A stretch of DNA of 64,000 nt from Demequina sp. GTDB taxonomy: Bacteria; Actinomycetota; Actinomycetes; Actinomycetales; Demequinaceae. A program made the position numbers and the translations under genes. The notes beneath the pieces are model-generated. The model was not told the origin of the DNA. It was given only the letters and a program-made list of their open reading frames with translations, and made no database searches. Position 1 is the stretch's first letter. Every line of letters begins with the position of its first letter. Where the stretch lies: assembly GCA_030148645.1 (NCBI GenBank), contig JASBTB010000007.1:12571-76570 (forward strand), given 5' to 3'. Below are positions 5,774 through 45,448 of this stretch, in pieces.

Positions 5774-6686
5774 TGGTCTCGGCAACGATCGGTTCTTTCC
5801 GGTCCTCGCCCGCACCCGAACAATCCACCGCCCCCTTGGTCCGGTTGCTTATGACTGTGTGAAGTTGATCTTCGTCCGGCACGGTTCGGCGGTCCTGCTC
5901 AGTGAGTTCGGCGAGAAACCCGTCACGACCGGCGACATCGTGATGTTGGGAGCGAACACGCTGTGCGGGAGCGAGCCTGAGGGCTCGATCACCGTCACGA
6001 CGCTCTACCTGGATAGTGACTACGTGATCGCCCAGGTGTTCTGGCAGCACGCCGCTGTGCTGTCCGACCGTCTCGATGCGCAGGACTTCATGAACGAGCG
6101 GTACTCCGAACCGGCCCAGATACTGCACCTAGGTGAGGATCAAGCCGGCATGCTCATGCCCTGGCTGGACGAGCTGGTCGCCCTCAGCATCGATGGACCC
6201 GCACCGGAACGCTTCTACCGCCTCCAAGCACTCCTGTTCGCGGTGCTCGACGTGATCACCCCGTACGTCGCCACCACCCCAGTGCGGGAGACGTCGACAC
6301 AGCGCAAGGCCACCCACCCCGGCCTGCCTCGCCGCCGCCACTTCACCCCGCTTCGGGCCGAGGCACGTGAGGCAGCGGAGCTTCTCCGCGACGCGCCAGC
6401 GCAGCGATGGACGCTACACGGGCTTGCTGCCGCCGTGCACCTGTCGTCGTCCCAGCTCGGCCGGGTCTTTACCGATGCCTACGGCCAGACACCCATGACG
6501 TACCTGACGACCCGGCGCGCCGAACAGCTGGCTCGGTCGCTGCGCGAGACGGACATGCCGATCGAGGTAGCGATGCGCCAGGTGGGCTGGCACAGCCGCG
6601 GCCACGCCGCCCGGATGTTCCGCCAATGCGTCGGAGTCACGCCCGCCCGGTACCGCGAACTCAGCCGCCAGAAGACGGTGACCTGA
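5760..6686 (+). CDS. AraC family transcriptional regulator (start uncertain)
   Basis: C-terminal dual HTH: WTLHGLAAAVHLSSSQLGRVFTDAYGQTP...VGWHSRGHAARMFRQCVGVTPARYR. Confidence 0.88.
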   Translation: MPTHDGLGNDRFFPVLARTRTIHRPLGPVAYDCVKLIFVRHGSAVLLSEFGEKPVTTGDIVMLGANTLCGSEPEGSITVTTLYLDSDYVIAQVFWQHAAVLSDRLDAQDFMNERYSEPAQILHLGEDQAGMLMPWLDELVALSIDGPAPERFYRLQALLFAVLDVITPYVATTPVRETSTQRKATHPGLPRRRHFTPLRAEAREAAELLRDAPAQRWTLHGLAAAVHLSSSQLGRVFTDAYGQTPMTYLTTRRAEQLARSLRETDMPIEVAMRQVGWHSRGHAARMFRQCVGVTPARYRELSRQKTVT

Positions 6687-6855
6687 AAGGCCGGTTCACA
6701 TCTGCGCATCTGCGATACACGAATCCGCATCATCGCCCGATCTCGGTCTGCCGTGGGTTGCGGGCTGATAGTCCGGTAGGACTCGTCGGGTTCACCGCCA
6801 CACCTTGACGGTCACAGCTGTTGTCCCGTTGCCCGTCTCGTTCGTGTTGGTGTTC

Positions 6856-6874
6856 CCGGCGCACCTGATGGTCA
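6856..6874 (+). promoter_or_regulatory. ICE motif copy 2 (GGCGCACCTGATGGTC-A) upstream of the ArdC-like operon
   Basis: CACCT at 6862-6866, then gatggtc, then A; function inferred. Confidence 0.45.
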
Positions 6875-6922
6875 CCGAGCCCGATCGGCCCGGTGCTCAG
6901 GGTATCGGGAGGAGACACCGAC

Positions 6923-8044
6923 ATGGCCACGACACGAGAGGAAGCCCAGGCCGCGCGGGAGGCGAAGCTCGATGAGCTGCACGGGCGGCTGACCGGCGCG
7001 GTCGAACAACTCGTCTCCGGCGACGACTGGGGCCGTGCGCTCGCGTTCGCCGCACGGTTCAGGGCGAGATCGTTCTCCAACACCCTGCTGATCTGGGCAC
7101 AGCATGCCGCGGCTTACGAGGCAGGTCGGGTTCCGGAGCCGATGCCGTCGTATGTGGCCGGGTATCGCCAGTGGCAGACCCTGGGCCGGCAAGTGGAAAA
7201 GGGTCAGTCGGGATACATGATCCTCGCCCCGGTCACCGGCCGATTCGCCACCGCGACACCGTCCGATCCGGAGTCGTGGCGGCGGCTCGGCAAGGGCGAG
7301 AAACCCCGCCCCGGTGAGGTCGTGCGCTCGAAAATGATTACCGCCAAGCCCGCCTACGTGTGGGACGCCTCGCAGACTGCCGGTGACCCGATCCCCGAGC
7401 CGCCGGCACCGAAGCTGCTGGAAGGCGAAGCACCGGTCGGGTTGTGGAATGGTCTGGCCAAGCTGGTTGAGGATCGCGGGTTCACCGTGCTGGCGGTGCC
7501 GCACGAGGGCCTGATCCACGGCGCCAACGGCATGACGGACTACACCGCGAAGACGGTTGCGGTCCGGGAGAACATGGACCCCGCCGCTCAGGTCAAGACG
7601 CTCGCCCACGAACTTGGGCACGTCCTCCTGCACGGCCCCGACCAGGAGGACGCCCGCCAGCATCGCGGCATCGGGGAAGTGGAGGCCGAATCGGTCGCGC
7701 TGATGATCGGCGCCGCCCATCACATGGACACAACCGGGTACACGATCCCCTACGTGTCGACCTGGGCCGCGCGGGTGGACGGCAAGGAATCGGTCGAGAT
7801 CGTCAAGACCACCGGCGAGCGGGTCCGCAAGACCGCCCTGACGATCCTCGATCAGCTCGACACCGCCCAGCTCGGTGACGGCACTCCACCCGGTCTCGAC
7901 CGTGAGACGCCGCACCGCAACCAGCCATCCCGTGAGCGCTCCGCACCCGAACGCGCAGCGTCGGGCAGGCATGTCGAGCCCGTGCCCGAAACGGGTCCCC
8001 GACCCGCGGCCAGCGCGGCCGTGATGCAGGGACGGAATCTATGA
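6923..8044 (+). CDS. ArdC-like ssDNA-binding domain plus zincin metallopeptidase-like domain
   Basis: RFRARSFSNTLLIWAQ...YVAGYRQWQTLGRQVEKG (ArdC-N); TLAHELGHVLLH and EVEAESVA (HExxH...E); GGAGG upstream of ATG 6923. Confidence 0.8.
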   Translation: MATTREEAQAAREAKLDELHGRLTGAVEQLVSGDDWGRALAFAARFRARSFSNTLLIWAQHAAAYEAGRVPEPMPSYVAGYRQWQTLGRQVEKGQSGYMILAPVTGRFATATPSDPESWRRLGKGEKPRPGEVVRSKMITAKPAYVWDASQTAGDPIPEPPAPKLLEGEAPVGLWNGLAKLVEDRGFTVLAVPHEGLIHGANGMTDYTAKTVAVRENMDPAAQVKTLAHELGHVLLHGPDQEDARQHRGIGEVEAESVALMIGAAHHMDTTGYTIPYVSTWAARVDGKESVEIVKTTGERVRKTALTILDQLDTAQLGDGTPPGLDRETPHRNQPSRERSAPERAASGRHVEPVPETGPRPAASAAVMQGRNL

Positions 8045-8988
8045 TGGCCGCCACGGACGCGCTCGCGGGTGCGCTGACGCAGATGACCGGGCCATGGCCG
8101 GTCTTCGCCGCAGCACGAGAACTCGCCGCCGCAGGTGTGCCGGTGTTCCCGTGCGTGCCGGGCGGGAAGCGTCCGCTCACCGAGCACGGGTTCCACGACG
8201 CCACCACCGATCCTGGCCAGGTGGAGGCCTGGTGGCGGACGCACCCGGAGGCGAACCTCGCTGTCCCCACCGGCGCCACCTCCGGGATGGTGGTGGTGGA
8301 CGTCGATGTCCACGCCCCCACCGACGGGTACAGGGCGTTCGAGCGCGCCCACCGTGCCGGCCTCGTGTTGAGGTGGGCGTTCCTGGTGTCCACGCCGTCG
8401 GGCGGGATGCACGCCTACTACCCGGCGACACCTGAACGGGCACAGCGGTCCTGGCAGGCTGCGCGCGCCGGTGTGGACTTCCGTGGCGACGGCGGCTACA
8501 TCCTCATCCCACCCTCGATGGTGTCCACCAACGGTGCCGCTGTCGGCTACCGGGTACGGCAGATCAACACCGGCCCCTCGGCGACGCTGGATTCGGACCG
8601 GCTGCGGGACTTCCTCGACCCGCGCCCGACGTCCCCGCCCAGGACGGGCCACGATGTGCAGCCGCCCGTGGATGTGTCGCGGCTGGCGACGTGGGTCGCT
8701 GCCCGCGGCGAAGGGGAACGGAACCGGGGCCTGTTCTGGGCCGCCTGCCGACTGGCCGAGAACGGTGTCCCGGCCCCCGATGCGCTCGATGTACTCGCGG
8801 CCGCGGCCTCGGAATCGGGGCTGGGCGAGCGGGAGATCACCGCGACCGTCCGCTCGGCCTACCGCACCACCCAACCCCAAGCCCGCCCTTCGCCGCCGGT
8901 GGAACGCGGCGCGCCTGGGGCCGCGGACGGGTGGTTTGCTCGCGATGCGACCGTGCGTCCGTCCGCTCCGATGCGGGGGCTGTCATGA
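8041..8988 (+). CDS. Bifunctional DNA primase/polymerase (prim-pol)
   Basis: VPVFPCVPGGKRPL..HGFHDATTD...ANLAVPTG...VVVDVD...TPSGGMHAYY...DFRGDGGYILIPPS; C-terminal GERNRGLFWAAC. Confidence 0.9.
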   Translation: MMAATDALAGALTQMTGPWPVFAAARELAAAGVPVFPCVPGGKRPLTEHGFHDATTDPGQVEAWWRTHPEANLAVPTGATSGMVVVDVDVHAPTDGYRAFERAHRAGLVLRWAFLVSTPSGGMHAYYPATPERAQRSWQAARAGVDFRGDGGYILIPPSMVSTNGAAVGYRVRQINTGPSATLDSDRLRDFLDPRPTSPPRTGHDVQPPVDVSRLATWVAARGEGERNRGLFWAACRLAENGVPAPDALDVLAAAASESGLGEREITATVRSAYRTTQPQARPSPPVERGAPGAADGWFARDATVRPSAPMRGLS

Positions 8989-12982: not shown

Positions 12983-14644
12983 ATGGTGAAGAAGCTCGCC
13001 CTCGCGGCCCTCGCACTGGTGTTCCTGGCGCCGTCGCTGGTGTTGATCGGGGTCGGGGTGGTGATGAACCCTGCCGCCTCGGCCTCCTGCACCGTGGCCG
13101 GCACAAGCGTCAGGGTCGGCGACGTCCCCGACGAGCTGGAGGTCACCACCGCCAACGGCGAGACCTTCACACTGAACAATCAGCAGCTCACGCATGCGGC
13201 GACGATCATCGAGACCGGGTCCGGCATCGACGGGGTGACCCAGGACGGGCTGGTGATTGCGCTGATGGCGGCGCTGACCGAATCCACCCTGCGGATGCTG
13301 TCCAACACGAGCGTCTATCCGGAGTCGGCGGACTATCCCAACGACGGCGACGGTTCCGACCACGACTCCCTGGGGTTGTTTCAGATGCGGCCGCAGTCCG
13401 GGTGGGGCACCGTCGCCGAGCTGATGGACCCGACATATCAGGCGCAGGCGTTCTTCGGCGGTCCTACCGGCCCCAACCATCCCTCACCGCGGGGCCTGTT
13501 GGACATTCCCGGCTGGGAGCAGATGGACAAGGGCGAGGCCGCCCAAGCCGTCGAGGTGTCCGCCTACCCTGACCGGTACCGCAACTACGAGCCCGTCGCC
13601 GAGACCATCCTGACCACCCTCACCGGCTCCACCACGACCGCCGACGCAGTCAATGCGGGGATGTCGACCGACGACACCGTGGCTCCAGCGGTTCAGACGG
13701 TGGCGGAGTCTTCGCGGGTGGTGTTCCCGGTGCCCGCGGGCACCTGGGTGCTGACCAGCGAGTACGGGCCGCGGGTCCATCCGATCTCCGGGGAGAGCTC
13801 GTTCCACACCGGCACCGACTTCGCCGCCCCGGACGGCGCCCCGATCCTCGCGGCGGCCGATGGCACCGTCACCGTCGCCGAGTCCTCCGGCGGCTACGGC
13901 GGGCTCATCGTCATCGAGCACACCCTCAATGGGCAGACCGTGGCCACCGCGTACGGGCACATATGGGAGACCGGCATCCACGTCCAACCCGGCGACACCG
14001 TCACTGCCGGCCAGCACATCGGCGACATTGGCTCCTCCGGCAACAGCACCGGCCCGCATCTGCATTTCGAGGTCCGGACCGGCGGCACCGACGGCGAGCA
14101 CACCGACCCCGCCGCGTGGCTCAACGACCATGATGGCGCCGACCTGCCCGAACCCGAGACCGGCGCCCCGGACGGCTGCGACCCCGACACCGGAACTCCC
14201 GGCGGCGACCCGGACCCCCTCGACGGTGACCCGGACCGCCTCGTGGATGCCCCCACCAGCGACGGGCAGATCACCGCTCGGATGCTGCACCTGTACCAGC
14301 AGGGCACCGCCGCCTTCCCCGACACCTCCTGGGCCTGCTACTCACCGCGTCCCGGCACCCGCTCCGAACACCCGCTCGGCCGGGCCTGCGATCTGACCTT
14401 CGGCAACGCCATCGGCCAGCACCCCACCCCGGCGCAGCTCGAAGCTGGCTGGGACGTCACCAACTGGATGCAGGACCACGCCGAAACCCTCGGTGTCGAG
14501 TACCTGATTTGGCAGGGCAAGATGTGGTCACTGGCCCGCGACGCCGATGGTTGGCGCGACTACAGCGGCGGCGGCATGCACGACCCCGGCGACGTCACCG
14601 GCGGCCACTACGACCACCTCCATGTCACCGTTCGGTCCAACTAG
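12983..14644 (+). CDS. Multidomain conjugative cell-wall hydrolase (lysozyme-like + M23 + putative LAS-type peptidase)
   Basis: MAALTES...DSLGLFQMRP..GWG; M23 HTGTDF and HLHFEV; C-terminal EHPLGRACD...HYDHLHV. Confidence 0.88.
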   Translation: MVKKLALAALALVFLAPSLVLIGVGVVMNPAASASCTVAGTSVRVGDVPDELEVTTANGETFTLNNQQLTHAATIIETGSGIDGVTQDGLVIALMAALTESTLRMLSNTSVYPESADYPNDGDGSDHDSLGLFQMRPQSGWGTVAELMDPTYQAQAFFGGPTGPNHPSPRGLLDIPGWEQMDKGEAAQAVEVSAYPDRYRNYEPVAETILTTLTGSTTTADAVNAGMSTDDTVAPAVQTVAESSRVVFPVPAGTWVLTSEYGPRVHPISGESSFHTGTDFAAPDGAPILAAADGTVTVAESSGGYGGLIVIEHTLNGQTVATAYGHIWETGIHVQPGDTVTAGQHIGDIGSSGNSTGPHLHFEVRTGGTDGEHTDPAAWLNDHDGADLPEPETGAPDGCDPDTGTPGGDPDPLDGDPDRLVDAPTSDGQITARMLHLYQQGTAAFPDTSWACYSPRPGTRSEHPLGRACDLTFGNAIGQHPTPAQLEAGWDVTNWMQDHAETLGVEYLIWQGKMWSLARDADGWRDYSGGGMHDPGDVTGGHYDHLHVTVRSN

Positions 14645-14650
14645 CAATTA

Positions 14651-14806
14651 TTACGTTAGATGTAATCCGCGACGGCCGGAATCGTGCGTATTCGCTGGTC
14701 AGGCAAGGGTACCAGGGGTCACTGATCTGAGCCTTGAACCCGGCTCTTGACCAGGGGAAACGCACCAAGTCTTACGTTAGATGTACTTTTCATACATTAG
14801 ATGTAA
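14651..14806 (+). repeat. TTACGTTAGATGTA x2 plus a third TTAGATGTA core
   Basis: Exact 14-mer at 14651-14664 and 14772-14785; core again at 14797-14805. Confidence 0.9.
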
Positions 14807-14816
14807 GACTGTTGGA

Positions 14817-15944
14817 GTGGACTTCGAGGACGGGAACCGCGCCGGATCGGTGACGGCGTTGCGGGCGGGCAACGTGGCGTTGCTGCGTCCGGCGGAGCAG
14901 GTCTTCGATGACATGCTCACGGGCTGGTCGGCGCAGCAGGTCTCACGGATGCTGAACCCCAAGACGATCGGGGCGCGCTTGTCGCAGGTGCGCCGGTTCG
15001 CCGTGTTCTGCGGGAGCTTGCCGTGGGAGTGGTCGCCCGCCGATGTCGAGGAGTGGACGACCGAGCTGGTCTCCGGCGACAAGCCGTGCTCGCACGGCAC
15101 GATCCGCTCGTATCAGAACGCGGTCGCGTTGTTCTGCGACTACCTGACCGACCGCCGCTACGGCTGGATCGAGCGATGCGAGGAACTGTTCGGCACTCAT
15201 CCGGTGCAGGTCTGCCATGAGTGGAACACCGCGATCCACACCAGCGATCACGAGGCACGCCCGGCGGTCCGGCCACTGTCGCGGGAAGAGGTACAAGCCT
15301 TCTTCGACTACGCCGACGATCGCGCCGACCATGCTCGCACGCGCGGAAAGAAGGGCTGGAAGTCGGTGTTCCGCGACGCGACCCTGTTCAAGATGATCTA
15401 CGCCTTCGGGCTGCGCCGCCGCGAGGTCGGGATGCTGGACCTGCATGACTTCACCCGCAACCCGACCGCGACCGAGTTCGGCCGGTACGGGGTCTGCAAC
15501 GTCCGCTGGGGCAAGGCCAGCAAAGGCTCCCCGCCCCGTCGGCGGGCGGTGCTGGCGGTGTTCGACTGGACCCGCCCAGTGATCGAGGAATACGTCACCG
15601 ACGTGCTGCCGCTGTTCGACACGGCAGGCGCCGGGATGCTGTGGCCGACCGAACGACAATCCAGGATCACGGGCAGCTACGTCGGGATGAGGTTCGCCGA
15701 GTACCGCGACGACCTCGGCTTCGACGCCGCGCTGCACCCGCACTGTCTGCGGCACTCGTATGTGACCCATCTGATCGAGGACGGCTTCGACCCGCTGTTC
15801 GTGCAGCAGCAGGTCGGGCACCGGTGGGGATCGACCACAGCCCTCTACACCGGCGTCTCGGGCGACTACCGCAACCGCACCCTGCGCCGCGCCCTGGACG
15901 CCGCGTTCACCCCACCGACCGCAACCGAGGAAGGATCACGCTGA
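14817..15944 (+). CDS. Tyrosine recombinase/integrase
   Basis: FGLRRREV (R), HCLRHSYVTH (HxxR), VGHRWGSTTALY (H, Y); start set at GTG 14817. Confidence 0.95.
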   Translation: MDFEDGNRAGSVTALRAGNVALLRPAEQVFDDMLTGWSAQQVSRMLNPKTIGARLSQVRRFAVFCGSLPWEWSPADVEEWTTELVSGDKPCSHGTIRSYQNAVALFCDYLTDRRYGWIERCEELFGTHPVQVCHEWNTAIHTSDHEARPAVRPLSREEVQAFFDYADDRADHARTRGKKGWKSVFRDATLFKMIYAFGLRRREVGMLDLHDFTRNPTATEFGRYGVCNVRWGKASKGSPPRRRAVLAVFDWTRPVIEEYVTDVLPLFDTAGAGMLWPTERQSRITGSYVGMRFAEYRDDLGFDAALHPHCLRHSYVTHLIEDGFDPLFVQQQVGHRWGSTTALYTGVSGDYRNRTLRRALDAAFTPPTATEEGSR

Positions 15945-16285
15945 TGACGAAGACCGTCGCCTACCACTGGCACCTGCGCAAGATCATGAACGAGCACGGC
16001 ATGAACGCCACCACCGAACTGGTGCCGCTGCTGGCCGACCGGGGCGTGGTGATGACCTCGACCCAGGTCTACCGGATCGTCACCGGCGAGCCGGAGCGGT
16101 TGAACATGCGGCTGCTCGCCGCGCTCTGCGACATCCTCGACGTCACCCCCAACGACCTGATCGAGCCCTACGTCGCCACCAGCTCGCGGCGCGGACGCAA
16201 GACCGGCACCACCGGCACCAGCACGCAGTCCAAGCCCAGCCGGAACCGTCCAACTCGCGCAGTCATCAAGCCTGCTGGGGACTGA
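15944..16285 (+). CDS. Cro/C1-type HTH protein
   Basis: WHLRKIMNEHGM..TTELVPLLADRGV.MTSTQVYRIVTGEPERLNMRLLAALCDILDVTPNDLI; TGATG coupling with the integrase. Confidence 0.88.
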   Translation: MTKTVAYHWHLRKIMNEHGMNATTELVPLLADRGVVMTSTQVYRIVTGEPERLNMRLLAALCDILDVTPNDLIEPYVATSSRRGRKTGTTGTSTQSKPSRNRPTRAVIKPAGD

Positions 16286-16294
16286 CCGGACCAG

Positions 16295-17959
16295 ATGGCG
16301 AGCACGATCGTCCCCGGTGAGTGTTTCCGCTGCGGACGGGTGAGGAACCTGCGCTGGAACCACACACTCAACCGGGGTGAGTGTCGGGCTTGCCGCGCCC
16401 GCCGCTCACCCCAGGAGACCTGCACCGGCTGCGGCAGGCAGCGGCGAGTCAACGCCCGCACCAGCGACGGCGGCGCTATCTGCACCACCTGCTACGCCCG
16501 AAACCGCGCCGGTGAGGATGCTTGCGAGGGATGCGGCACTATCGGCCCGCTCGCCACCCGAGCTGGCGGGAAGTCCGATGGATCGCGGAATCTCTGCGTT
16601 CGCTGCTACCGGCACCCGCGTCGGTCCTGCGGCGTCTGCGGCCGGCTCAAGCGAGTCGCGTTGAAAGCGACCGCCGCGAGCCCGGACGTCTGCCCGACCT
16701 GCTACCAAGCGCCGGTCATCGACTGCTCCATCTGCGGCCAGCGGTCGCTCGGCCGGCGAACCACCAACCACGGCCGGCCCCGTTGCTTCGCCTGCCAAGC
16801 CACCCAGCAGATCGACGCCGCGCTCACCGGCCCGGACGGCACGATCCGACCCGAGCTGAAACCCGTCCGCGATGCCCTGACCGAGCTACGCCAACCCCGC
16901 TCGCTGCTGAACAACTGGCACGACTTGCCGAGCCTGCACCTGCTCACCGACATCGCTCAAGGCCGGCTCGACCTGTCACACGATGCTCTCGATGCCCGCC
17001 CGCAAGTGTTCTCGGTGACCTACCTGCGCGCGATGCTCGTCGCCTCCGGCGCGTTGCCGCCCCGGGACGAGAACGCCGCCCGGCTACACCGCCACGCCGC
17101 CGAAGCCGGCGCCGACATCACCGATCCCGAGCTGCGCGGCGTGCTGTCCCGCTATGCCCGCTGGCACGTCGTCGGCCGCGCCAAGACCAACCGCCACGGC
17201 CACCTCACCGCTCATGTCGCCGCACGCTGCCGCAGCGACATTCACACCGCCCACGCCTTTCTCGACGACCTGACCGCGGGCGGTCACACCCTCGACGACT
17301 GCCCGCAAGCCTGCGTGGACGCCTGGCTCAGCACGAGCCGCAGCACCCGCCTGGGGTTCGTCCGCTGGCTCACACGAGGCGGCTACCTACCCCGAGTCAC
17401 GTTGCCCGAACCCGTCGCGGCGAAAGACCCCGCCCATCAGGTTGACGCCGAAGATCAGCTGGCCCTTGCCCGCCGACTCCTGCACGACTCCACCGTCGCC
17501 AGCATCGAGGATCGCGCCGCCGCCTGCCTGATCCTGCTCTATGCCCAGCCCGTCGCGAAGATCGCCGCCCTCACCACCGACGACATCGAGGTCCGCGACA
17601 CGGGAACCTATCTGCGGCTCGGCCGCGAACCGCTGCTGCTGATCCCGCCTCTGGACGGGCTGGTCACCGCGCTACCGGTCGTCAAGCCGTTCGGCACTGC
17701 GAGCATCCTGGCTGATGCCCGGTGGCTGTTCACTGGCAAGAACGCGGGCACCCATCTTCATCCCGCTTCACTCATGCGGCGGATGAACCAGCTCGGCATC
17801 TTCACCCGCGCCAGCCGGAGCACCGCGCTACTGCACCTGGCCTCCACGACCCCGCCCGCCGTGTTCGCCTCGCTCATCGGCATCCACATCACCACCGCGA
17901 CCCGCTGGGCTGAACTCACCGGCTCAGCCTGGAACACCTACGCCGCCGCCCGACGCTGA
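16295..17959 (+). CDS. Ten-CxxC zinc-ribbon protein with a degenerate tyrosine-recombinase-like C-terminus
   Basis: CxxC pairs CFRC, CRAC, CTGC, CTTC, CEGC, CVRC, CGVC, CPTC, CSIC, CFAC; C-terminal LILLYAQPVAKIAALTTDDI...WLFTG...RASRSTAL..LASTTPPAVFASLIGIHITTATRW. Confidence 0.8.
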   Translation: MASTIVPGECFRCGRVRNLRWNHTLNRGECRACRARRSPQETCTGCGRQRRVNARTSDGGAICTTCYARNRAGEDACEGCGTIGPLATRAGGKSDGSRNLCVRCYRHPRRSCGVCGRLKRVALKATAASPDVCPTCYQAPVIDCSICGQRSLGRRTTNHGRPRCFACQATQQIDAALTGPDGTIRPELKPVRDALTELRQPRSLLNNWHDLPSLHLLTDIAQGRLDLSHDALDARPQVFSVTYLRAMLVASGALPPRDENAARLHRHAAEAGADITDPELRGVLSRYARWHVVGRAKTNRHGHLTAHVAARCRSDIHTAHAFLDDLTAGGHTLDDCPQACVDAWLSTSRSTRLGFVRWLTRGGYLPRVTLPEPVAAKDPAHQVDAEDQLALARRLLHDSTVASIEDRAAACLILLYAQPVAKIAALTTDDIEVRDTGTYLRLGREPLLLIPPLDGLVTALPVVKPFGTASILADARWLFTGKNAGTHLHPASLMRRMNQLGIFTRASRSTALLHLASTTPPAVFASLIGIHITTATRWAELTGSAWNTYAAARR

Positions 17960-17968
17960 CGACCAAGG

Positions 17969-18415
17969 TCACTCCCGCTCCGTCTGAAGCAAGGTCGCGG
18001 TCTGCTCTACCCAGCGTCGTTGCCTGCCCGTCTCGACAGCTCGCCGGTGATAGTGGGAACGGACCCACGCCACCGCGTCTTCTGGCGCGACACCGCTCAT
18101 CGTTGCCAGCAGCGCCAAAGCCGTCCCGGTCCGCCCGATGCCGCCGCCACACCCGATCTCGACTCGCTCCTCACCGGCACGTTCCCACGCCTCACGCAGC
18201 GCCGTCGTCGCGTCGTCGGTCGAGTCCGGTAGCCGGAAGTCTCGCCACCGCACCCAGCGATGAGGCCAAGGACCAGGCGCTGGGTCACGGCCAAGTAGAT
18301 AGACCGCGAAATCGGGGGCAGGCACATCGCCGCGCGGCCGGCGCACGCCGACGCCGCGGATGCGTCGCCCGTCGGGCAACACCACCACACCCGGCTCGTC
18401 AGTCCATGCGTCCAC
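17969..18415 (-). CDS. Small protein-tyrosine/dual-specificity phosphatase-like protein
   Basis: WRDFRLP acid loop and Cx5R motif IGCGGGIGRTG. Confidence 0.85.
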   Translation of the reverse strand: MDAWTDEPGVVVLPDGRRIRGVGVRRPRGDVPAPDFAVYLLGRDPAPGPWPHRWVRWRDFRLPDSTDDATTALREAWERAGEERVEIGCGGGIGRTGTALALLATMSGVAPEDAVAWVRSHYHRRAVETGRQRRWVEQTATLLQTERE

Positions 18416-18465
18416 ACTTCAACGCTAGCCCGACGGCGGCGGTCCTGCCTGCGCACCTCGCCAGC

Positions 18466-18513
18466 ATGGATTTCGAACGCTTCGAATACTTGCGATCCCC
18501 GGTTGGTCAGTAA
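18466..18513 (+). CDS. Putative 15-aa leaderless small ORF MDFERFEYLRSPVGQ (copy A), preceded by ICE motif copy 5
   Basis: CACCT at 18454-18458, 7 nt, then ATG; near-identical to 22826-22873. Confidence 0.45.
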   Translation: MDFERFEYLRSPVGQ

Positions 18514-18633
18514 TGACCACGCGACAAGTAGTGGTTAGTTGTCTGGATAACGCCGATTCGCCTGACTAGGCGAGGGTAGCGGCAGGCCGAGAAGCGGGTC
18601 CCGGAAGCGGCTGCTGGTGAGGAAGATGGGGAC

Positions 18634-18714
18634 GTGGACTTCGGGGACGGGAAGCAGACCTGGATCGGTGGCGGCGGCGAAGCAAGTCTCGACGATATGC
18701 TCACTGGGTGGTCT
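18634..18714 (+). pseudogene. Degenerate 5' fragment of a paralogue of the 14817 integrase
   Basis: gtggacttcggggacgggaag vs gtggacttcgaggacgggaac (14817); DDMLTGWS shared; about 30 nt deleted between the two matching blocks. Confidence 0.8.
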
Positions 18715-19014
18715 GGGAGCGGTCCGGGTGCACGGTGTCGGTGCGGGGACAGGTGGCTCGCCGCCAGCTGTTCGACAGTGACACGGACGAAGGGGCACCG
18801 CGGCACCGATTGCCGCATATGGTCGAGCCGGTCGTGCGCGGTAAACTGGATGAGGACCTGGCCATCACCAGTTGGCCGAGTCAGCCAGCTCCGAGTCCAG
18901 GCCACAGCTGAGCAGACACCTCGAAGCCGATCCGGGTGTTCTGGCCCATACGGCTAGTTTTGCGGAGATCCTGCCGCGGGGGTTCCTTGTCCTGAGGAAG
19001 AGAGAGCACGAGTC

Positions 19015-19662
19015 ATGGCGCGTCTTGCTGTTCTGGGTGGCACCGGCTATACCGGAGGCCACATTGTCGCCAAGGCGGTGCGGGCGGGGCACCACGTCAC
19101 GTCCTACAGCCGCACGGCCCCGTCCGAACCGGTCGATGAGGTCACGTACCGGACGGGGTCGTTGACGGACGCGGCGATCCGCGAGCACGCAGTGGCCGGG
19201 GCGGATGTCGTGATCGGTGCCCTCGCCCCGCGGGGTGAGCTGGAGGACTCCCTGGCAGGGGTGTACCGGGAGGTGGCCGGCCTGGCCGCGGCCGGTGGGG
19301 TGCGGTTCGGGGTGGTGGGCGGGTTCAGTGCGCTACGGCCGGCGGAGGGGGCTCCGCGGTTCTATGAGTCCGGGGAGCTGCCGCCGGAGTTCGCCGCTGA
19401 GGCCCGGACGATGGGCGCGGTGCTGGACTGGTTGCTCAGCGACGCTCCGCAGGGACTGGATTGGTTCTATGTGAGCCCGGCAGCGAACTACGGCTCCTAT
19501 GTGCCTGGTGAGGAGTTGGGCCGGTACCGGATCGGCGGGGAGGTCGCTCTGTTCGATGCTGAGGGGAAGTCGGCGATCAGCGGACCGGACTTCGCCGCGG
19601 CGATCGTCGCTGAGATCGACACGCCCACCCACCGGCGGGCTCAGTTCTCCGTCGCCTACTGA
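19015..19662 (+). CDS. NAD(P)-dependent oxidoreductase (atypical SDR, NAD(P)H-binding)
   Basis: LAVLGGTGYTGG Rossmann motif; VVGGFSAL, WFYVSPAA, SAISGPDFAAAI. Confidence 0.9.
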   Translation: MARLAVLGGTGYTGGHIVAKAVRAGHHVTSYSRTAPSEPVDEVTYRTGSLTDAAIREHAVAGADVVIGALAPRGELEDSLAGVYREVAGLAAAGGVRFGVVGGFSALRPAEGAPRFYESGELPPEFAAEARTMGAVLDWLLSDAPQGLDWFYVSPAANYGSYVPGEELGRYRIGGEVALFDAEGKSAISGPDFAAAIVAEIDTPTHRRAQFSVAY

Positions 19663-19775
19663 GTTCCTGGGCTCTCGCGGGCTCAGCCGCATGACCGCGC
19701 CGGCCCGGCGATCGTTACCGGGCGGGCACGCTCAGGAGGCCGGGCCTGCCGCACCGTCAGGCACGAGCGCGTGGG

Positions 19776-20441
19776 TCATCGGACGAGAAAGATGAGGATG
19801 GCCAGGCTCGCGGCGGCTGCGGTGAAGTACAGCGCGGCGATCTTGCCGCTGGGCTTGGTGTGACCGGTGGCGTAGCGGTTGTAGAGGGTTTGCAGCCGGG
19901 CTCGGAGGCGGTCTTGGTAGAGCAGGCCGATGATCAGGACCGCGAGGGTCGGCAGGGCGTAGATCGCGGTGTAGCCGATCAGCACGGGCACCGCGGTCTC
20001 GGGGCCGATGCCGGTGTCGATGAGGCGTTCGACGGCCAGGAACATCGGGAACGCGTTAGGGATGTCGCTGATCGTGGCGACCAGACCGAGCGGAAGCGCG
20101 GTCCAGGCGTTCACCCAGGACGGCAGCCCGTACCCGCGCCGGGGGCGCGCGGTGAACCGGCGGACGCCGAGAACGATGAAGACCACCGTGATGATCGTGA
20201 ACAGGATGCGACGCAGCCACAGCGTCAACCCGTCCAGCCAGGTCTCGGCGGCGTTGAGCCCGAAGTAGAGCAGCAGCGTGAAGGTCCCGAACGTCACGAA
20301 CGCCCCGACCGCGTACGCCCACCCGGTGGCCGCGGGCCGCTTGGCGGCCAGCAGGATCACCACGACGATCCAGATCGTGGAGACGTTGACCGAGTCCAGC
20401 AACGCCAAGCCCACCAGGGTGAGCAGCAGCCCCACAGTCAC
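19776..20441 (-). CDS. GAP/Sap-family (peptidoglycolipid-addressing-like) membrane protein
   Basis: GLALLDSVNVSTI, ISDIPNAFPMFLA and Y..IYALP hydrophobic pattern; GTGA overlap with TetR. Confidence 0.7.
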   Translation of the reverse strand: MTVGLLLTLVGLALLDSVNVSTIWIVVVILLAAKRPAATGWAYAVGAFVTFGTFTLLLYFGLNAAETWLDGLTLWLRRILFTIITVVFIVLGVRRFTARPRRGYGLPSWVNAWTALPLGLVATISDIPNAFPMFLAVERLIDTGIGPETAVPVLIGYTAIYALPTLAVLIIGLLYQDRLRARLQTLYNRYATGHTKPSGKIAALYFTAAAASLAILIFLVR

Positions 20442-21031
20442 CGCGGATCACGTGCGCCGCCCCCGCCGGATGTGCCGGGTGCACTGGGGGTCTCGGTCGT
20501 GTAGGCGAGGGTGGTGAGGTGGTTCGCGATCCTGGCCCGCATAGAGGGGTGCAGGGGTGTGGTGAGGGACTCGATGAGCCAGAGCCCGTCGGCGGCCAGG
20601 CGGGCGATGAGCTGGCTCAACTCACCCGGGGAGATGTCTGCATGCTCGGGCAGTGGCGGGGTCCACCGGGCCAGGACCCCGTTCCAGGGGGCGTGCATGG
20701 CGGGGTCGTTGACGGTTTCGAGCATCAGCAACAACTCGGCCCGGGTCGCGCTGTGGGTCGCGACCTGGGCGTAGGCGGCCAGACGCTCAGCATCACTGGC
20801 CCGTTCGGCGGGTTTGCCCGCGGCCTCGGTGAGAGCGGTCTCCCACTGTTCGGCGAGGTGCTCGTGCAGCGCCTGCAGCATGACCTCGCGGGTGCCGAAG
20901 TGATACAGCAGCCCGCCTTTGGTCATGCCCGCGGCCTCGGCCACGGCCTCGAAGGTCACCGCGGTGACCCCGCCGGCCTCGATCACCCCCAGGGCCGCAT
21001 CGAGGATCTCGGTCCGCTTGCTGGGACGCAT
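20438..21031 (-). CDS. TetR family regulator
   Basis: MRPSKRTEILDAALGVIEAGGVTAVTFEAVAEAAGMTKGGLLYHF. Confidence 0.93.
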   Translation of the reverse strand: MRPSKRTEILDAALGVIEAGGVTAVTFEAVAEAAGMTKGGLLYHFGTREVMLQALHEHLAEQWETALTEAAGKPAERASDAERLAAYAQVATHSATRAELLLMLETVNDPAMHAPWNGVLARWTPPLPEHADISPGELSQLIARLAADGLWLIESLTTPLHPSMRARIANHLTTLAYTTETPSAPGTSGGGGARDPR

Positions 21032-21056
21032 AGCCTCTGCCTCCACTCCCGCCCGG

Positions 21057-22559
21057 TCAGTGGTTGCCCGAGAAGGCCTGCGACTGAGTCCCCGGCCCGT
21101 GGTGGCGCAGCAACCGTCCGGTGACCGCGGCCCCGACCGCCAGGACCACGGCGAGGATGATCATCGTGACCAAGAACCCGGTGTCGAAGGCACTGCTCGC
21201 CGCCTCGATGATCGCCCGGTCCCCGCCCGCTGTCGCCAGCGCATCCGACAGGCTCTCGTGCGCACCCTCCGGCGCGCCGGCCGGGAGCCGCACGGTGGTG
21301 GTGTAAACGAAGGTGAGCAGGCTGCCCAACAACGCGACAGCGGTCAGGGACCCGAACTCATACGACACCTCCTCGACCGAGGACGCCATCCCGGCACGGC
21401 GGGCGGGCACATTGCCCACAATCGCGGTCGAGGCCACCGACATCGCCCCACCCAGCCCGGCGCCGGTAACCAGCAGCCCGGCAACCAACACACCGAACAC
21501 GTCGGCCTGCACACCGATGATCACCACGACCACCCCGAGCGAGGCGACCGCAAGGCCCCCGGCGATCAACGGCAGCAGGCCGATCCTGTGCAGGAACGCC
21601 CCGCCCAACAGCGCGGTGGGCAGCGACCCGATCGCGACCGCCGCGACCAGCAGCCCGGCCTCCAGGGGGGTGAAACCCTCCACAAGCTGATACCGCTGGG
21701 TCGTGACCAGCTGGGACCCGCCGATCGCGAACATCGAGAACGCCGCCGCCAGCACCCCGGCGCTGAACGCGGGATTGCGGAAGATCGAGAACTCCAGCAG
21801 CGGCTGCTCCAAGCCCCGCTGACGGCGGACGAACAGCACCGACCCGACCACCGCGGCCACCAAGCCCGCACCAACGATCACCCAGTTCTGCGGGGAATGC
21901 GCGAGCTCCTTGATGAAGAACACCGCACCCACCAGCGCGACCATCGCCTGCAACGACGACACCAGGTCCCACCTCTTGGACGGGTCGGGGTCGTTGGGCG
22001 GTGCGATCAGCACCGCCGCGATCAACGCGGCGATCACCACGGGCACGTTGATCAGGAACACCGAGCCCCACCAGAAGTGCTCCAGCAGCACCCCGCCCAC
22101 GATCGGGCCCAGCGCCGCACCCACCACCGCAAGGCTCCCCCACACCGCGATCGCGAAATTGCGCTCACGCTCAACCTCGAACGAGACCCGGATCAGCGCC
22201 AGCGTGGCCGGCATCATCGCCGCCGCGCCCACCGCCAGCACCGCACGCGCCGCGATCAGCAGACCCGCCGACGGCGCGAACGCCGCCCCCAACGACGCCA
22301 CCCCGAACACCACCAGACCGATCAAAAACATCCGCCGGCGCCCGATCCGGTCCCCCAGCGTGCCCGAGCCCAGCAACAGGCCCGCCATCACCACCGGATA
22401 GGCGTTGATGATCCACAAGCTCTGCGACCCCGACGCCCCCAACTCCTCGGTCAACGTCGGCAACGCCGTATACAGGATCGAGTTGTCCAGAGTGATCAAC
22501 AGCAGCCCCGCCGCCACCGTCACCAGCAGACCCCACCGCTGCCGCTTGCTCAAACTCAC
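21057..22559 (-). CDS. 14-TM DHA2-type MFS efflux pump
   Basis: LITLDNSILYTALP, WIINAYPVVMAGLLL..GTLGDRIGRR, WGSVFLINVP. Confidence 0.93.
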   Translation of the reverse strand: MSLSKRQRWGLLVTVAAGLLLITLDNSILYTALPTLTEELGASGSQSLWIINAYPVVMAGLLLGSGTLGDRIGRRRMFLIGLVVFGVASLGAAFAPSAGLLIAARAVLAVGAAAMMPATLALIRVSFEVERERNFAIAVWGSLAVVGAALGPIVGGVLLEHFWWGSVFLINVPVVIAALIAAVLIAPPNDPDPSKRWDLVSSLQAMVALVGAVFFIKELAHSPQNWVIVGAGLVAAVVGSVLFVRRQRGLEQPLLEFSIFRNPAFSAGVLAAAFSMFAIGGSQLVTTQRYQLVEGFTPLEAGLLVAAVAIGSLPTALLGGAFLHRIGLLPLIAGGLAVASLGVVVVIIGVQADVFGVLVAGLLVTGAGLGGAMSVASTAIVGNVPARRAGMASSVEEVSYEFGSLTAVALLGSLLTFVYTTTVRLPAGAPEGAHESLSDALATAGGDRAIIEAASSAFDTGFLVTMIILAVVLAVGAAVTGRLLRHHGPGTQSQAFSGNH

Positions 22560-22584
22560 GTCATCACACCTTTCCGGAACCGAA

Positions 22585-22638
22585 CTATCACCACCCGTAA
22601 CTATACCATACGTACGATACAGTTACGACTGGTGATAG
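22585..22638. promoter_or_regulatory. Long imperfect palindrome, probable TetR operator upstream of the MFS
   Basis: CTATCACCAcccGTAACT...AGTTACgacTGGTGATAG with central ATACGTAC. Confidence 0.7.
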
Positions 22639-22825
22639 GTGGCCGGGCTCCACACCAGCCTTGAACGCACAACCCGGACCCTCAGAAAGACACCGAAGCG
22701 GACAGCGCGCACGTGCAGCAGTCCCAACAGAGCCTCCCGAGAACCGGCACACCACCCGTCGCAACAGCCGCACCAACGCCCCACCCAGCTGACGCCCCCT
22801 GCACCCCGATGCACACCTGAACAGC

Positions 22826-22873
22826 ATGGATTACGAACGCTTCGAATACTTGCTTACGCCGGTTGGGAGCTGA
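22826..22873 (+). CDS. Putative 15-aa leaderless small ORF MDYERFEYLLTPVGS (copy B), preceded by ICE motif copy 6
   Basis: CACCT at 22814-22818, 7 nt, then ATG; its TGA ends 5 nt before the pilin-like ATG at 22879. Confidence 0.5.
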   Translation: MDYERFEYLLTPVGS

Positions 22874-22878
22874 GCGGC

Positions 22879-23145
22879 ATGGACGTGTTCCCCGACTTCG
22901 ACGGCCTCGGCGGGATCGGTGACCTGCGCGAGGTGATCGGCGCGCTGCTCACCTTCGTCCTGGTGATCGCCGTGTTGATGCTGATCGTCTGTGCCCTCAT
23001 CTGGGCACTCGCCGCCGCCAACGGCAACCACGCTGCCGCGACCAAGGCGCGCGTCGGCGCCTGGACCGCGCTCGGTGCCGCGGTCCTGGCCGGCGGCGGG
23101 GTGGCGTGGCTGAACTGGCTCATCGCCCTGGGTCAGCAACTCTGA
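22879..23145 (+). CDS. Pilin-like (DUF6112 / VirB2-like) membrane protein 1
   Basis: MDVFPDFDGLGGIGDLREVIGALLT...; two hydrophobic helices. Confidence 0.75.
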   Translation: MDVFPDFDGLGGIGDLREVIGALLTFVLVIAVLMLIVCALIWALAAANGNHAAATKARVGAWTALGAAVLAGGGVAWLNWLIALGQQL

Positions 23146-45353: not shown

Positions 45354-45417
45354 GGTGTGCTCCTCGTGCAGTCGGTGTTCGGGGCGATCAGCGACGATCG
45401 CGTGCCGCCGCAGTGCC

Positions 45418-45441: not shown

Positions 45442-45448
45442 TGCTAAC

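What the first reader, a model, noticed from the sequence alone, without database searches (positions are those of the whole stretch)
14651..17959. Int + HTH + (five zinc ribbons + dead integrase) module nested in the ICE
Seen: an intact tyrosine recombinase (R, HxxR, H, Y), a TGATG-coupled Cro/C1 HTH gene, and a 554-aa protein with ten CxxC pairs arranged as five CxxCG-x-CxxC units. That protein's C-terminus resembles a recombinase catalytic domain but has LYAQP at the Arg box, ASRS at HxxR and Trp near the Tyr position. Established: multi-recombinase elements exist (RIT trios, Tn554 TnpA/B/C). Inference: a distinct transposon class in which a catalytically dead, zinc-finger-equipped partner could select targets or assemble the synapse.
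Basis: partly seen in the sequence, partly recalled or inferred. Interest (0 to 1): 0.7.

Follow-up and report, generated by a model that had tools for sequence, protein, structure and literature searches.

The report
Three-gene actinobacterial insertion element
A 3.9-kb mobile DNA element sits inside a conjugative element and encodes one working tyrosine recombinase, a small repressor-like protein and a zinc-ribbon protein with a degenerate recombinase fold; the same three-gene unit occurs in about a tenth of actinomycete genomes, where relatives are found inserted at fixed points of conserved genes, often the integrase genes of other mobile elements.

Summary
Int (14817-15944) has the full R-K-HxxR-H-Y set. 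A Cro/C1 HTH gene follows (TGATG overlap), then a 554-aa protein with five CxxCG..CxxC ribbons. Its C-terminal 370 residues fold as a two-domain tyrosine recombinase (Foldseek: XerA, XerH, Cre, lambda Int; prob 1.0, TM up to 0.52). No sequence method detects this.

The canonical Tyr is W538 here and W/H/A in relatives. The beta-hairpin Lys and both His are absent. Only Arg II (R508) is invariant. A nearly invariant Tyr (Y549) lies in the last helix, so "dead" is likely, not proven.

The trio is a discrete mobile element:
- Bases 14639-18506 are about 100% identical in three other genera, while the flanking ICE is 70-80% identical.
- Two other replicons (a genome and a plasmid) hold 2-3 copies with sharp ends (3840 and 4067 bp).
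- Relatives split integrase genes exactly after box II, and the gene resumes after the element.
- All 22 scorable loci keep the order Int-HTH-ZnR.

The third protein's family has about 3,700 clusters and no Pfam model. The literature I found mentions it only as uncharacterised "XER modules". The closest analogues are Tn554 and the SE/GInt elements. The ICE has its own serine integrase. The mechanism is inferred.

The parts
12983..14644 (+). Target gene. ICE cell-wall hydrolase (M23 peptidase plus a C-terminal VldE-like domain). The element abuts its 3' end.
   Evidence: Pfam Peptidase_M23; VldE annotation of homologues. In the relatives of this subfamily whose junction was read (L006, L008, L013, L014, L052, L074), the element's left end starts within a few bases of this gene type's last codons. 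L001, L004 and L010 share the window's junction.
14639..14652 (+). Left junction and end, AACTAGCAATTATT. The element supplies the last codon and the TAG stop of the hydrolase gene. It contains a short inverted-repeat arm, GCAATTATT (14644-14652).
   Evidence: The near-100% identity with L001, L004 and L010 starts here, while upstream identity is 60-90%. The motif AA(C/T)TAG(G)CAAT is shared with other subfamilies.
14651..14665 (+). Palindromic site O1, TTACGTTAGATGTAA (TTACRT-N3-ATGTAA), next to the left junction. Probably an operator or architectural site for the HTH protein.
   Evidence: 3 matches in the window against 0.06 expected, all in 14651-14806. Equivalent sites occur at the same place in all subfamilies.
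14747..14806 (+). Probable int promoter region. It holds a conserved -35-like TTGACC (14747-14752) and two palindromic sites, O2 (14772-14786) and O3 (14792-14806), spaced 20 bp apart just before the int start.
   Evidence: Conservation of (C/T)TGACC plus a double site in relatives. The consensus promoter scan found nothing, so the promoter call is inference.
14817..15944 (+). int: tyrosine recombinase with a complete catalytic set. This is the presumed catalyst.
   Evidence: Pfam PF00589 at 54.6 bits; PHROG integrase; catalytic residues read.
15941..16285 (+). Cro/C1-type HTH gene, translationally coupled to int (TGATG).
   Evidence: Pfam HTH_26, E 1e-12; junction read. It lies between int and the third gene in 22 of 22 scorable loci.
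16295..17959 (+). Third gene (ZnR). Five tandem zinc ribbons (residues 10-166, bases 16322-16792) followed by a two-domain tyrosine-recombinase fold (about residues 200-554) with a degenerate active site: K422, no beta-hairpin Lys, R505xxR508, no His III, W538 at the Tyr position. A conserved W546xxY549 lies in the last helix.
   Evidence: No Pfam, NCBIfam or PHROG hit. Foldseek hits. Residue conservation. Ribbon number varies from 3 to 8 in the family.
17969..18415 (-). Passenger gene: a small dual-specificity/tyrosine phosphatase-like protein.
   Evidence: Pfam PTP-SAK and Y_phosphatase. It lies inside the ~100% identical block. It is absent from relatives L006, L008 and L013, which carry other cargo here.
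18450..18506 (+). Right end of the element. A 57-nt conserved block with the imperfect palindrome GCATGGATTTCGAACGCTTCGAATACTTGC (18464-18493), the inverted-repeat arm AATACTTGC (18485-18493), and a 15-codon ORF MDFERFEYLRSPVGQ (18466-18513).
   Evidence: The identity block with L001, L004 and L010 ends at 18506. Copies of the block lie at the right end of the trio-plus-cargo unit, just before the pilin-like gene or a further remnant unit, in L001, L003, L004, L007, L009, L010 and L013.
18507..22866 (+). Decayed second element (E2) in tandem. It has a degenerate left end, a ghost of an int N-terminus (18634-18720), cargo (NAD-binding protein 19015-19662, SfLAP-like 19776-20441 on the minus strand, TetR 20438-21046 on the minus strand, MFS 21057-22559 on the minus strand) and a second copy of the right-end block (22810-22866, 84% identical to the first).
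   Evidence: Direct repeat D2. This 4.3 kb is absent from L001, L004 and L010. The ghost int matches at E 2e-4. Cargo Pfam hits. A parallel case in L007 has a solo left end plus ars genes between two right-end blocks.
22879..23145 (+). Right flank: the ICE DUF6112 gene, the first gene after the insertion. The conjugation genes follow it.
   Evidence: Pfam DUF6112, E 3e-45. The TraG/VirD4 coupling protein is at 29180-31375. In ICE relatives without the element, the hydrolase stop directly abuts this gene.

Best explanation
Bases 14639-18506 are one copy of a site-specific mobile element of Actinomycetes. The element's core is three co-transcribed genes: int, an HTH gene and the zinc-ribbon gene (ZnR). 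It is nested in an ICE that has its own serine integrase.

Shown:
- The unit moves as a block of 3.8-4.1 kb, plus optional cargo between the third gene and the right end.
- Its ends are asymmetric, with no long terminal repeats and no evident target duplication.
- Each subfamily is found at a fixed point of a conserved coding sequence. For this subfamily that point is the last codons of VldE-type hydrolase genes. Other subfamilies are found in integrase genes after box II, in integrase genes after the catalytic Tyr, or (one case, L087) inside an ISL3 transposase gene.

Inferred mechanism:
- Int is the only catalyst of strand exchange.
- The HTH protein binds the 15-bp palindromes TTACAT-N3-ATGTAA, one beside the left junction and two over the int promoter. 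It thereby autoregulates the operon and shapes the left-end complex.
- The third protein is a non-catalytic paralogue that takes the place of a second recombinase in the synapse. Its core-binding and catalytic-like domains would clamp DNA. Its C-terminal WxxY helix would dock on Int as helix N does in Cre or Xer tetramers. Its array of 3-8 zinc ribbons would read the target or the element end.
- With one active partner, only one strand pair may be exchanged. Completion would then depend on replication or host functions, as in XerC-only or strand-biased systems.
- New copies landing at the same target push older ones rightward. This explains the decayed second unit at 18507-22866.
For: Mobility:
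- The block is ~100% identical to L001 (Ca. Lutibacillus), L004 (Haematomicrobium) and L002 (Tessaracoccus). Flanks are 60-90% identical in DNA, and the hydrolase is 70-74% identical in protein.
- Genome G284 holds two copies, 98.96% identical over exactly 3840 bp.
- The Rhodococcus USK10 plasmid holds three copies that share exactly 4067 bp.
- Elements of 3850, 3872 and 3828 bp split Phage_integrase genes at profile position 140 of 172. The remainder of each gene (..LGH..Y.H) resumes right after the element.
- One element splits an ISL3 transposase gene.
- ICE relatives without the element join the hydrolase gene directly to DUF6112.
- The ICE has its own serine integrase beside tRNA-Ala.

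Linkage and spread:
- 22 of 22 scorable loci have the order Int-HTH-ZnR.
- 38 of 401 Actinomycetes genomes carry the third gene, as do 252 plasmid records.
- The family has 3721 representatives at E<=1e-10.

Third protein:
- Recombinase fold.
- No conserved Tyr, Lys or His at the canonical places; invariant R508; near-invariant Y549 in the terminal helix.
- Ribbon number varies from 3 to 8 between subfamilies.

Sites: palindromes occur only at the left end and are conserved in position across subfamilies.
Against:
- The residue correspondences for the third protein rest on helix and strand order plus hand alignment. Profile-profile comparison with the Int family gives no signal, and I had no structural superposition.
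- Arg I may be retained (K here, R in many relatives). R508 and Y549 are conserved, so a non-canonical active site is not excluded.
- Which protein binds the palindromes was not tested.
- Ribbon number tracks subfamily phylogeny, so its link to target choice is not an independent observation.
- The exact crossover points are unresolved. The sequences next to the two short inverted arms differ (CAACTA and GATCCC), which a simple conservative core-identity model does not predict.
Confidence: 0.6

Rival explanations
1. The third protein is an active but divergent tyrosine recombinase that uses R/K422, R508 and Y549. The element would then work with two catalysts, as Tn554 does with TnpA and TnpB.
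For: R508 is invariant and Y549 nearly invariant across relatives down to 26% identity. The Arg I position is Arg in many distant members. The long-protein-plus-short-recombinase layout recalls TnpB/TnpA (PMC3414803).
Against: - Y549 lies in the last helix, 11 residues beyond the canonical position, which is occupied by W, H, A or V.
- There is no Lys in the beta2-beta3 turn and no conserved His II or His III.
- There is no Pfam Phage_integrase signal at all.
Confidence: 0.2
2. The trio is not an element of its own. It is the integration/excision or cassette-capture module of the host ICE or island, an integron-like platform upstream of the pilin-like gene.
For: In this subfamily the trio always lies between the ICE hydrolase and DUF6112 genes. 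Variable cargo bounded by repeated 57-nt blocks follows it.
Against: - The ICE has its own serine integrase at its end, beside tRNA-Ala.
- The same trio occurs in a chromosome between housekeeping genes (L014).
- It occurs as bare 3.8-4.1 kb multi-copy units and inside integrase and transposase genes.
- The block is ~100% identical across genera while the ICE backbone is not.
- Matches to integron-integrase models are far below cut-off: 38 bits against 265.
Confidence: 0.07
3. The sharp identity block reflects homologous recombination or gene conversion between related ICEs, not transposition. The trio would then be a resolution or regulatory system.
For: The block's ends coincide with gene borders. 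I found no target duplication or long terminal repeats.
Against: This cannot explain copies in unrelated flanks within one replicon. It also cannot explain precise interruption of unrelated integrase and ISL3 genes with both halves preserved.
Confidence: 0.03

Closest known systems
'XER modules' of Antarctic Arthrobacter plasmids (Romaniuk et al. 2018, PMC6305408)
   Same: Both have a core of three genes annotated tyrosine recombinase XerD, XRE regulator and recombinase XerC, followed by 4-14 passenger genes. The modules are inserted between two genes of an operon (umuC/umuD) and are 96-99% identical between unrelated plasmids. The authors proposed them as novel integrative elements. Homologues of the third protein lie on 19 Arthrobacter plasmid records; the two I opened (L077, L078) have the same gene order and similar annotations.
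   Different: That paper gives no ends, targets, structure or mechanism, and it treats the third protein as an ordinary XerC. I could not compare sequences directly, because MH067969 and MH067977 are not in the collections.
Tn554 family (TnpA, TnpB, TnpC) and the actinobacterial Tn554-like elements of Van Houdt et al. 2012 (PMC3414803)
   Same: Both are small tyrosine-recombinase transposons with three genes: one ordinary and one long recombinase-type protein plus a small third protein. Both have asymmetric ends, no target duplication and high target specificity (established knowledge; my).
   Different: In Tn554 both TnpA and TnpB carry the catalytic motif. Here only one protein does. The small protein here is a Cro/C1 HTH placed between the two others. 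Two of the listed actinobacterial Tn554-like plasmids (pRHL2 and FB24 plasmid 1) have no homologue of the third protein.
Strand-biased circularizing integrative elements (SE: IntA, Tfp, IntB, Srap) and GInt islands (GinA-D) of Proteobacteria (PMC10214605)
   Same: These elements contain a 'tyrosine recombinase fold protein' (Tfp, GinC) that lacks the RHRY residues and is required for attL x attR recombination. They have operon-coupled core genes at the left end, cargo to the right, target specificity and no conjugation genes.
   Different: SE and GInt elements have two active recombinases plus the fold protein and a fourth protein. They have no zinc-ribbon array and no HTH gene, and they are restricted to Gamma/Betaproteobacteria. 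Sequence relatedness was not tested here.
Xer-type heterotetramers with one silent partner (for example XerC-only integration of CTX-type phages)
   Same: This is the functional analogy for a synapse in which only one kind of subunit cuts (established knowledge).
   Different: In those systems the silent partner is a fully competent enzyme that is regulated. Here the partner seems to have lost the residues permanently and to have gained a zinc-ribbon array.

Membership tests
Tyrosine recombinase superfamily (Int, 14817-15944) | Phage_integrase catalytic domain above the Pfam threshold | tested here: met
   PF00589, 54.6 bits against a cut-off of 27.1; PHROG integrase, E 6e-25.
Tyrosine recombinase superfamily (Int, 14817-15944) | Catalytic R, K, HxxR, H/W and Y residues | tested here: met
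   Read in the translation: GLRRRE, WGKASKG, HCLRH, VGH, ALY. Assignment is by motif order only; no structure was made.
Tyrosine recombinase superfamily (third protein, 16295-17959) | Two-domain recombinase fold (core-binding plus catalytic domain) | tested here: met
   All top Foldseek hits are XerA, XerH, Cre, IntI, lambda Int or XerD. Probability is 1.0, E is 4e-4, and TM (normalised to the target) is up to 0.52 over about 300-350 columns.
Tyrosine recombinase superfamily (third protein, 16295-17959) | Sequence-level family signature | tested here: not met
   No Pfam, NCBIfam or PHROG match. The PDB profile search finds only weak LIM-like hits. hhalign against the Int family gives probability below 1%.
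Tyrosine recombinase superfamily (third protein, 16295-17959) | Complete catalytic set at the canonical positions | tested here: not met
   The Tyr position is W538 here and W/H/A/V in relatives, with Y in only one of 35. There is no Lys in the beta2-beta3 turn, and His II and His III are not conserved. Only R508 is invariant. K/R422 is ambiguous for Arg I. The register was inferred from secondary-structure order, not from a superposition.
Tn554 family | Two catalytically competent recombinases (TnpA, TnpB) plus TnpC | tested here: not met
   Only one competent recombinase is present. The small protein is HTH_26. Actinobacterial Tn554-like plasmids lack the third protein.
Tn554 family | Asymmetric ends, no target duplication, specific target | tested here: met
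   There is no significant left/right similarity in three elements. No duplication is seen at the junctions. Insertion points are fixed.
RIT (recombinase in trio) elements | Three adjacent tyrosine recombinase genes | tested here: not met
   The middle gene is an HTH. Only one gene matches PF00589.
Integron | IntI-type integrase and attC-bounded cassettes | tested here: not met
   The integron integrase models score 38 and 25 bits against cut-offs of 265 and 435. The repeated 57-nt blocks are element right ends, not attC-like hairpin sites.
'XER module' (Romaniuk 2018) | XerD - XRE - XerC core with passenger genes, on Arthrobacter plasmids | tested here: inconclusive
   Gene order, annotations and the presence of homologues on Arthrobacter plasmids agree. 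The published records themselves could not be fetched.
SE / GInt elements | intA-tfp-intB-srap (or ginA-D) synteny | not tested
   No SE or GInt sequences were at hand. The gene content clearly differs (one Int, an HTH, no srap). The resemblance is functional only.

The most novel reading that the evidence does not exclude
The third protein is a natural 'zinc-ribbon-guided pseudo-recombinase'. Its modular array of 3-8 ribbons would read a 20-40 bp stretch of conserved coding DNA, for example the box II codons of other elements' integrase genes. It would then recruit a single active Int to cut there. On this reading the family is a large group of mobile elements that preferentially disable or ride on other mobile elements, and whose target choice could be re-programmed by swapping ribbons.
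Probability: 0.3. Interest if true: 0.85.

Novelty: new variant of a known kind. Interest (0 to 1): 0.68.

Why it matters
- The third protein's family is large: about 3,700 clusters at 50% identity. It is present in about one in ten actinomycete genomes and on 252 plasmid records.
- It has no Pfam or NCBIfam model and is annotated inconsistently as XerD, Fis-family regulator, integrase or hypothetical protein.
- Recognising it as the marker of a discrete mobile element would improve annotation of actinobacterial mobilomes, including Streptomyces, Rhodococcus and Mycobacterium plasmids that carry resistance and catabolic cargo.
- Mechanistically, it offers a compact three-protein system in which a recombinase-fold protein has apparently traded catalysis for a zinc-ribbon DNA-reading array.
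- It is found at precise points in conserved genes, often the integrase genes of rival elements.
- This bears on how tyrosine-recombinase transposons such as Tn554, SE and GInt, whose routes are still unresolved, choose targets and assemble synapses.
- It also bears on the design of targetable integrases.

Tried and rejected
- Sequence-level proof of the recombinase relationship failed. Pfam, NCBIfam and PHROGs found nothing. The PDB profile search gave only weak LIM hits. hhalign against Int alone and against a 23-sequence Int alignment gave no signal.
- The 554-aa ORF at 45275-46939 (minus strand), the same length as the third protein, is a spurious antisense frame of an oxidoreductase gene.
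- I looked for terminal direct or inverted repeats by local alignment in three elements. Scores were within the shuffled range. Only short 9-bp arms were seen by eye.
- I looked for the left-end palindrome at the right end and found none.
- I tested whether the actinobacterial Tn554-like elements of Van Houdt 2012 are the same family. pRHL2 and FB24 plasmid 1 have no homologue. SCP1 was not in the collection.
- I tried to fetch the published XER-module plasmids. They are not in the collection.
- I tried to look for circular junctions or empty sites in sequencing reads.
- The consensus promoter and terminator scan of the element found nothing.
- A look-up of P0058 by identity found nothing.
It was redone without them.
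- I could not fix the exact crossover positions. An apparent shared motif at right junctions (TTGC-N5-6-CCGGTT) may belong to the element or to the target.
- In the window's subfamily the 57-nt right-end block also carries an ICE-wide promoter-like motif and a 15-codon ORF. Its conservation therefore has more than one possible cause.


Full report
**1. What is there**

The window is high-GC actinobacterial DNA. It comes from a 2.2-Mb draft genome that holds one copy of the third gene.

Three co-oriented ORFs lie between 14.6 and 18.0 kb:
- A tyrosine recombinase (ORF 14781-15944). Its likely start is GTG 14817, because relatives align from residue 12-13 on.
- A 114-aa Cro/C1 HTH protein (15941-16285).
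- A 554-aa protein (16295-17959).

Pfam finds Phage_integrase in the first (54.6 bits), HTH_26 in the second and nothing meaningful in the third. NCBIfam and PHROGs agree. The Int translation shows all the catalytic motifs. The int stop and the HTH start overlap as TGATG.

The third protein has ten CxxC motifs that form five CxxCG-x16-19-CxxC units between residues 10 and 166. The cysteines are invariant or nearly invariant in 34 homologues.

**2. The third protein's fold and active site**

A full-length AlphaFold model (pLDDT 79) gave only tyrosine recombinases as top Foldseek hits in the PDB. A model of residues 183-554 built on 29 diverse relatives (pLDDT 83, pTM 0.68) gave the same result. 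The hits were XerA, XerH, Cre, integron integrase, lambda Int and XerD. Probability was 1.0, E was down to 2-4e-4, and about 300-350 columns aligned. With the better model, TM normalised to the target reached 0.52. Both the core-binding and the catalytic domain are covered. Sequence methods see nothing.

I mapped the canonical motifs onto the model's order of helices and strands. This is hand alignment, hence inference. In an alignment of 35 family members down to 26% identity and in A1/A3, the positions read as follows:
- Arg I: K422 here, Arg in many distant members, Thr in some.
- Beta2-beta3 turn: no conserved Lys.
- His II: not conserved (R505 here).
- Arg II: R508, invariant.
- His/Trp III: not conserved.
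- Nucleophile position: W538 here. It is W, H, A or V elsewhere, and Tyr in only one of 35.

A nearly invariant Tyr (Y549, in a WxxY motif) lies in the last helix, which corresponds to helix N. In Cre and Xer tetramers helix N docks on the neighbouring subunit (established knowledge). I therefore read WxxY as a contact motif. It also keeps open a non-canonical active site.

The number of ribbons ranges from 3 to 8 between subfamilies.

**3. The trio is a linked unit and is widespread**

The third protein has close relatives in many actinobacterial genera, at 75-85% identity across families.

In a sample of 401 Actinomycetes genomes, 38 have a match at E<=1e-10. Among good-quality genomes the figure is 34 of 314, and 25 of 175 genera are represented. 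Some genomes hold several copies.

In all 22 loci with a near-full-length match and enough upstream sequence, an HTH gene and an Int gene lie directly upstream in the same order and strand. This holds even where the third protein is only 27% identical.

Beyond that sample:
- 252 plasmid records carry it: Streptomyces 112, Rhodococcus 58, Arthrobacter 19, and others. It is annotated variously as integrase, XerD, Fis-family regulator or hypothetical protein.
- A profile search of 1.84 billion cluster representatives gives 3721 matches at E<=1e-10.

**4. It is a discrete mobile element**

(a) Identity block in the window's own subfamily. Bases 14639-18506 are ~100% identical to loci from Ca. Lutibacillus (L001) and Haematomicrobium (L004), 100% identical to Tessaracoccus (L002, a 2.6-kb contig covering 15554-18111), and about 97% identical to a Pseudoclavibacter MAG (L010). 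The DNA just outside drops to 60-90%, and the neighbouring hydrolase is only 70-74% identical in protein.

(b) Copies in genome G284. This complete genome has two copies, 98.96% identical over exactly 3840 bp. Each starts at the stop codon of a different HATPase_c_2 gene.

(c) Copies on the Rhodococcus USK10 plasmid. It has three copies that share exactly 4067 bp.

(d) Insertions that split integrase genes. Three elements of 3850, 3872 and 3828 bp (L086, L088, L071) sit inside different Phage_integrase genes. Each lies immediately after the box II codons H-x-L-R-H-x-[YF]-A-[ST]-[VM]-L, at Pfam profile position 140 of 172. The rest of each gene (..LGH...Y.H..) resumes directly after the element.

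(e) Other split or abutted targets. Another subfamily lies just after the catalytic Tyr codon of three further integrase genes. Once it lies inside an ISL3 transposase gene, whose remainder also resumes after the element.

(f) Empty sites. ICE relatives that lack the element join the hydrolase gene directly to the DUF6112 gene. Unoccupied VldE-type 3' ends also exist.

**5. Anatomy of the ends**

Left end. It begins with AA(C/T)TAG(G)CAAT. In the window this supplies the last codon and the stop of the hydrolase gene.

A 15-bp palindrome, TTACRT-N3-ATGTAA, follows within a few bases (14651). Two more lie 20 bp apart just before the int start (14772 and 14792), downstream of a conserved TTGACC. 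These are the only three matches in 64 kb, against 0.06 expected. The same layout, with TTGCAT-N3-ATGCAA variants, recurs in every subfamily.

A 6+3+6 palindrome repeated two helical turns apart is what a dimeric HTH repressor would bind. I therefore assign these sites to the HTH protein. This is inference.

Right end. It is unrelated to the left end. Local alignments of the left and right ends are no better than shuffles in three elements. By eye, a 9-bp imperfect inverted pair exists: GCAATTATT at 14644-14652 and AATACTTGC at 18485-18493. The bases just outside these arms differ at the two junctions (CAACTA and GATCCC). I saw no target duplication. Tolerance of heterology in the overlap, as in Tn916 and Tn554, is a possibility. 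It has not been shown.

**6. Cargo and tandem accretion**

The space between the third gene and the right end is variable:
- A phosphatase-like gene in the window (17969-18415).
- SMR pumps in L013.
- A P-type ATPase in L007.

The window's right-end block (18450-18506) recurs at 22810-22866 with 84% identity. The 4.3 kb between the two copies is absent from L001, L004 and L010. That stretch begins with a degenerate left end and a ghost of an int N-terminus (E 2e-4). It carries NAD-binding, SfLAP-like, TetR and MFS genes.

L007 shows the same arrangement more clearly. After the first right-end block comes a solo left end with all its palindromes but no int. Next come an ars cluster, a second right-end block and DUF6112.

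The simplest reading is repeated insertion at the same target. The newest copy lies next to the hydrolase gene, and older copies decay.

The right-end block also holds a promoter-like motif that another note (e1-5271807) reports before many ICE genes, and a 15-codon ORF. It may therefore restore transcription of the downstream conjugation genes. This is speculative.

**7. Relation to the ICE**

ICE-type genes lie on both sides:
- Upstream: ArdC, Prim-Pol and ParB-like genes and the M23 hydrolase.
- Downstream: DUF6112 and a TraG/VirD4 coupling protein.

A large serine recombinase (Resolvase + Recombinase + Zn_ribbon_recom) lies at 32998-34671, next to tRNA-Ala. The ICE therefore has its own integrase, and the trio is a nested passenger element. 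'Nested in the ICE' is correct.

**8. Comparison with what is known**

XER modules. The literature search found one prior mention of this gene set: the 'XER modules' of Arthrobacter plasmids (PMC6305408). They were proposed as novel integrative elements without further analysis.

Tn554. Tn554 and the actinobacterial Tn554-like elements (PMC3414803) share the style of the element but have two competent recombinases. Two of the listed plasmids lack the third protein.

SE and GInt. These proteobacterial elements (PMC10214605) contain recombinase-fold proteins without RHRY (Tfp, GinC) that are needed for recombination. This is the best functional precedent, although gene content and hosts differ.

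I therefore class the finding as a new variant of a known kind, namely multi-protein tyrosine-recombinase transposable elements. As far as I could find, three features are undescribed:
- A single catalyst paired with a zinc-ribbon-bearing pseudo-recombinase.
- An intercalated HTH gene with left-end operators.
- Insertion points fixed in conserved coding motifs, frequently in other elements' integrase genes.

**9. Limits**

- Everything about mechanism is inferred from sequence, models and comparative anatomy.
- Read-level tests were not possible.
- The crossover points, the binding partners of each site and the catalytic status of the third protein need the experiments listed above.

Noticed in passing
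window 32998-34671 and 34670-34746: A large serine recombinase (Resolvase + Recombinase + Zn_ribbon_recom) ends at tRNA-Ala(CGC). It is probably the ICE's own integrase and attachment site. Its frame stays open through the tRNA on the opposite strand.
   Followed up: partly
window 46826-47143 and 47161-47234: A C-terminal fragment of a tyrosine integrase (..LLGHAKPSTTLDVYSDLF..) lies next to tRNA-Arg(CCT). Upstream are MerR-type and pyridine-nucleotide-disulfide oxidoreductase genes. It looks like a decayed tRNA-targeting island. No trio-type end motif was seen there.
   Followed up: partly
window 18466-18513 and 22826-22873: The two right-end blocks each encode a 15-codon ORF (MDFERFEYLRSPVGQ and MDYERFEYLLTPVGS) just upstream of the pilin-like DUF6112 gene. 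Variants occur in L007 and L013. It is unclear whether this is a leader peptide, a recombination site or both.
   Followed up: partly
L007 6016-6260: A solo left end of a trio-type element, with all its palindromes but no int gene. It is followed by ArsR, a methyltransferase, ACR3 and ArsC-like genes and a second right-end block. This is a clear example of tandem accretion and decay.
   Followed up: yes
L002 and L005 (Tessaracoccus caeni HF-7 contigs of 2558 and 2557 bp): Two variants of the trio's 3' part, 97% identical to each other, assembled as separate short contigs with coverages of 88 and 174. The strain therefore probably holds several copies.
   Followed up: no
L012 (MAG labelled Gemmatimonadales), 6483-8598: A trio with a frameshifted int and a third gene that matches only residues 1-199 (87% identical), on a contig binned to another phylum. 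This is either cross-phylum transfer of a decaying copy or mis-binning.
   Followed up: no
L082 4906-5961, L083 11797-12873, L076 1-1059, L086 1233-2918, L088 2526-3884, L071 11905-13155: Six different integrase genes of other elements are interrupted or abutted by trio elements at two fixed positions: after box II, or after the catalytic Tyr. This suggests that the family preferentially lands in the recombinase genes of other mobile elements.
   Followed up: yes
L078, L094, L096, L097, L077 (upstream of int): The three-ribbon subfamily on Micrococcales plasmids and chromosomes has a conserved GCCGATAA-N5-6-ATTATGTCA motif just outside the first palindrome. It could be its target or its end. 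This was not analysed.
   Followed up: no
L068 923-2563 (genome G043): An ICE relative without the trio carries a 546-aa coiled-coil-rich ORF of unknown function in the same hydrolase-DUF6112 slot. There the hydrolase reading frame runs about 20 codons further.
   Followed up: no
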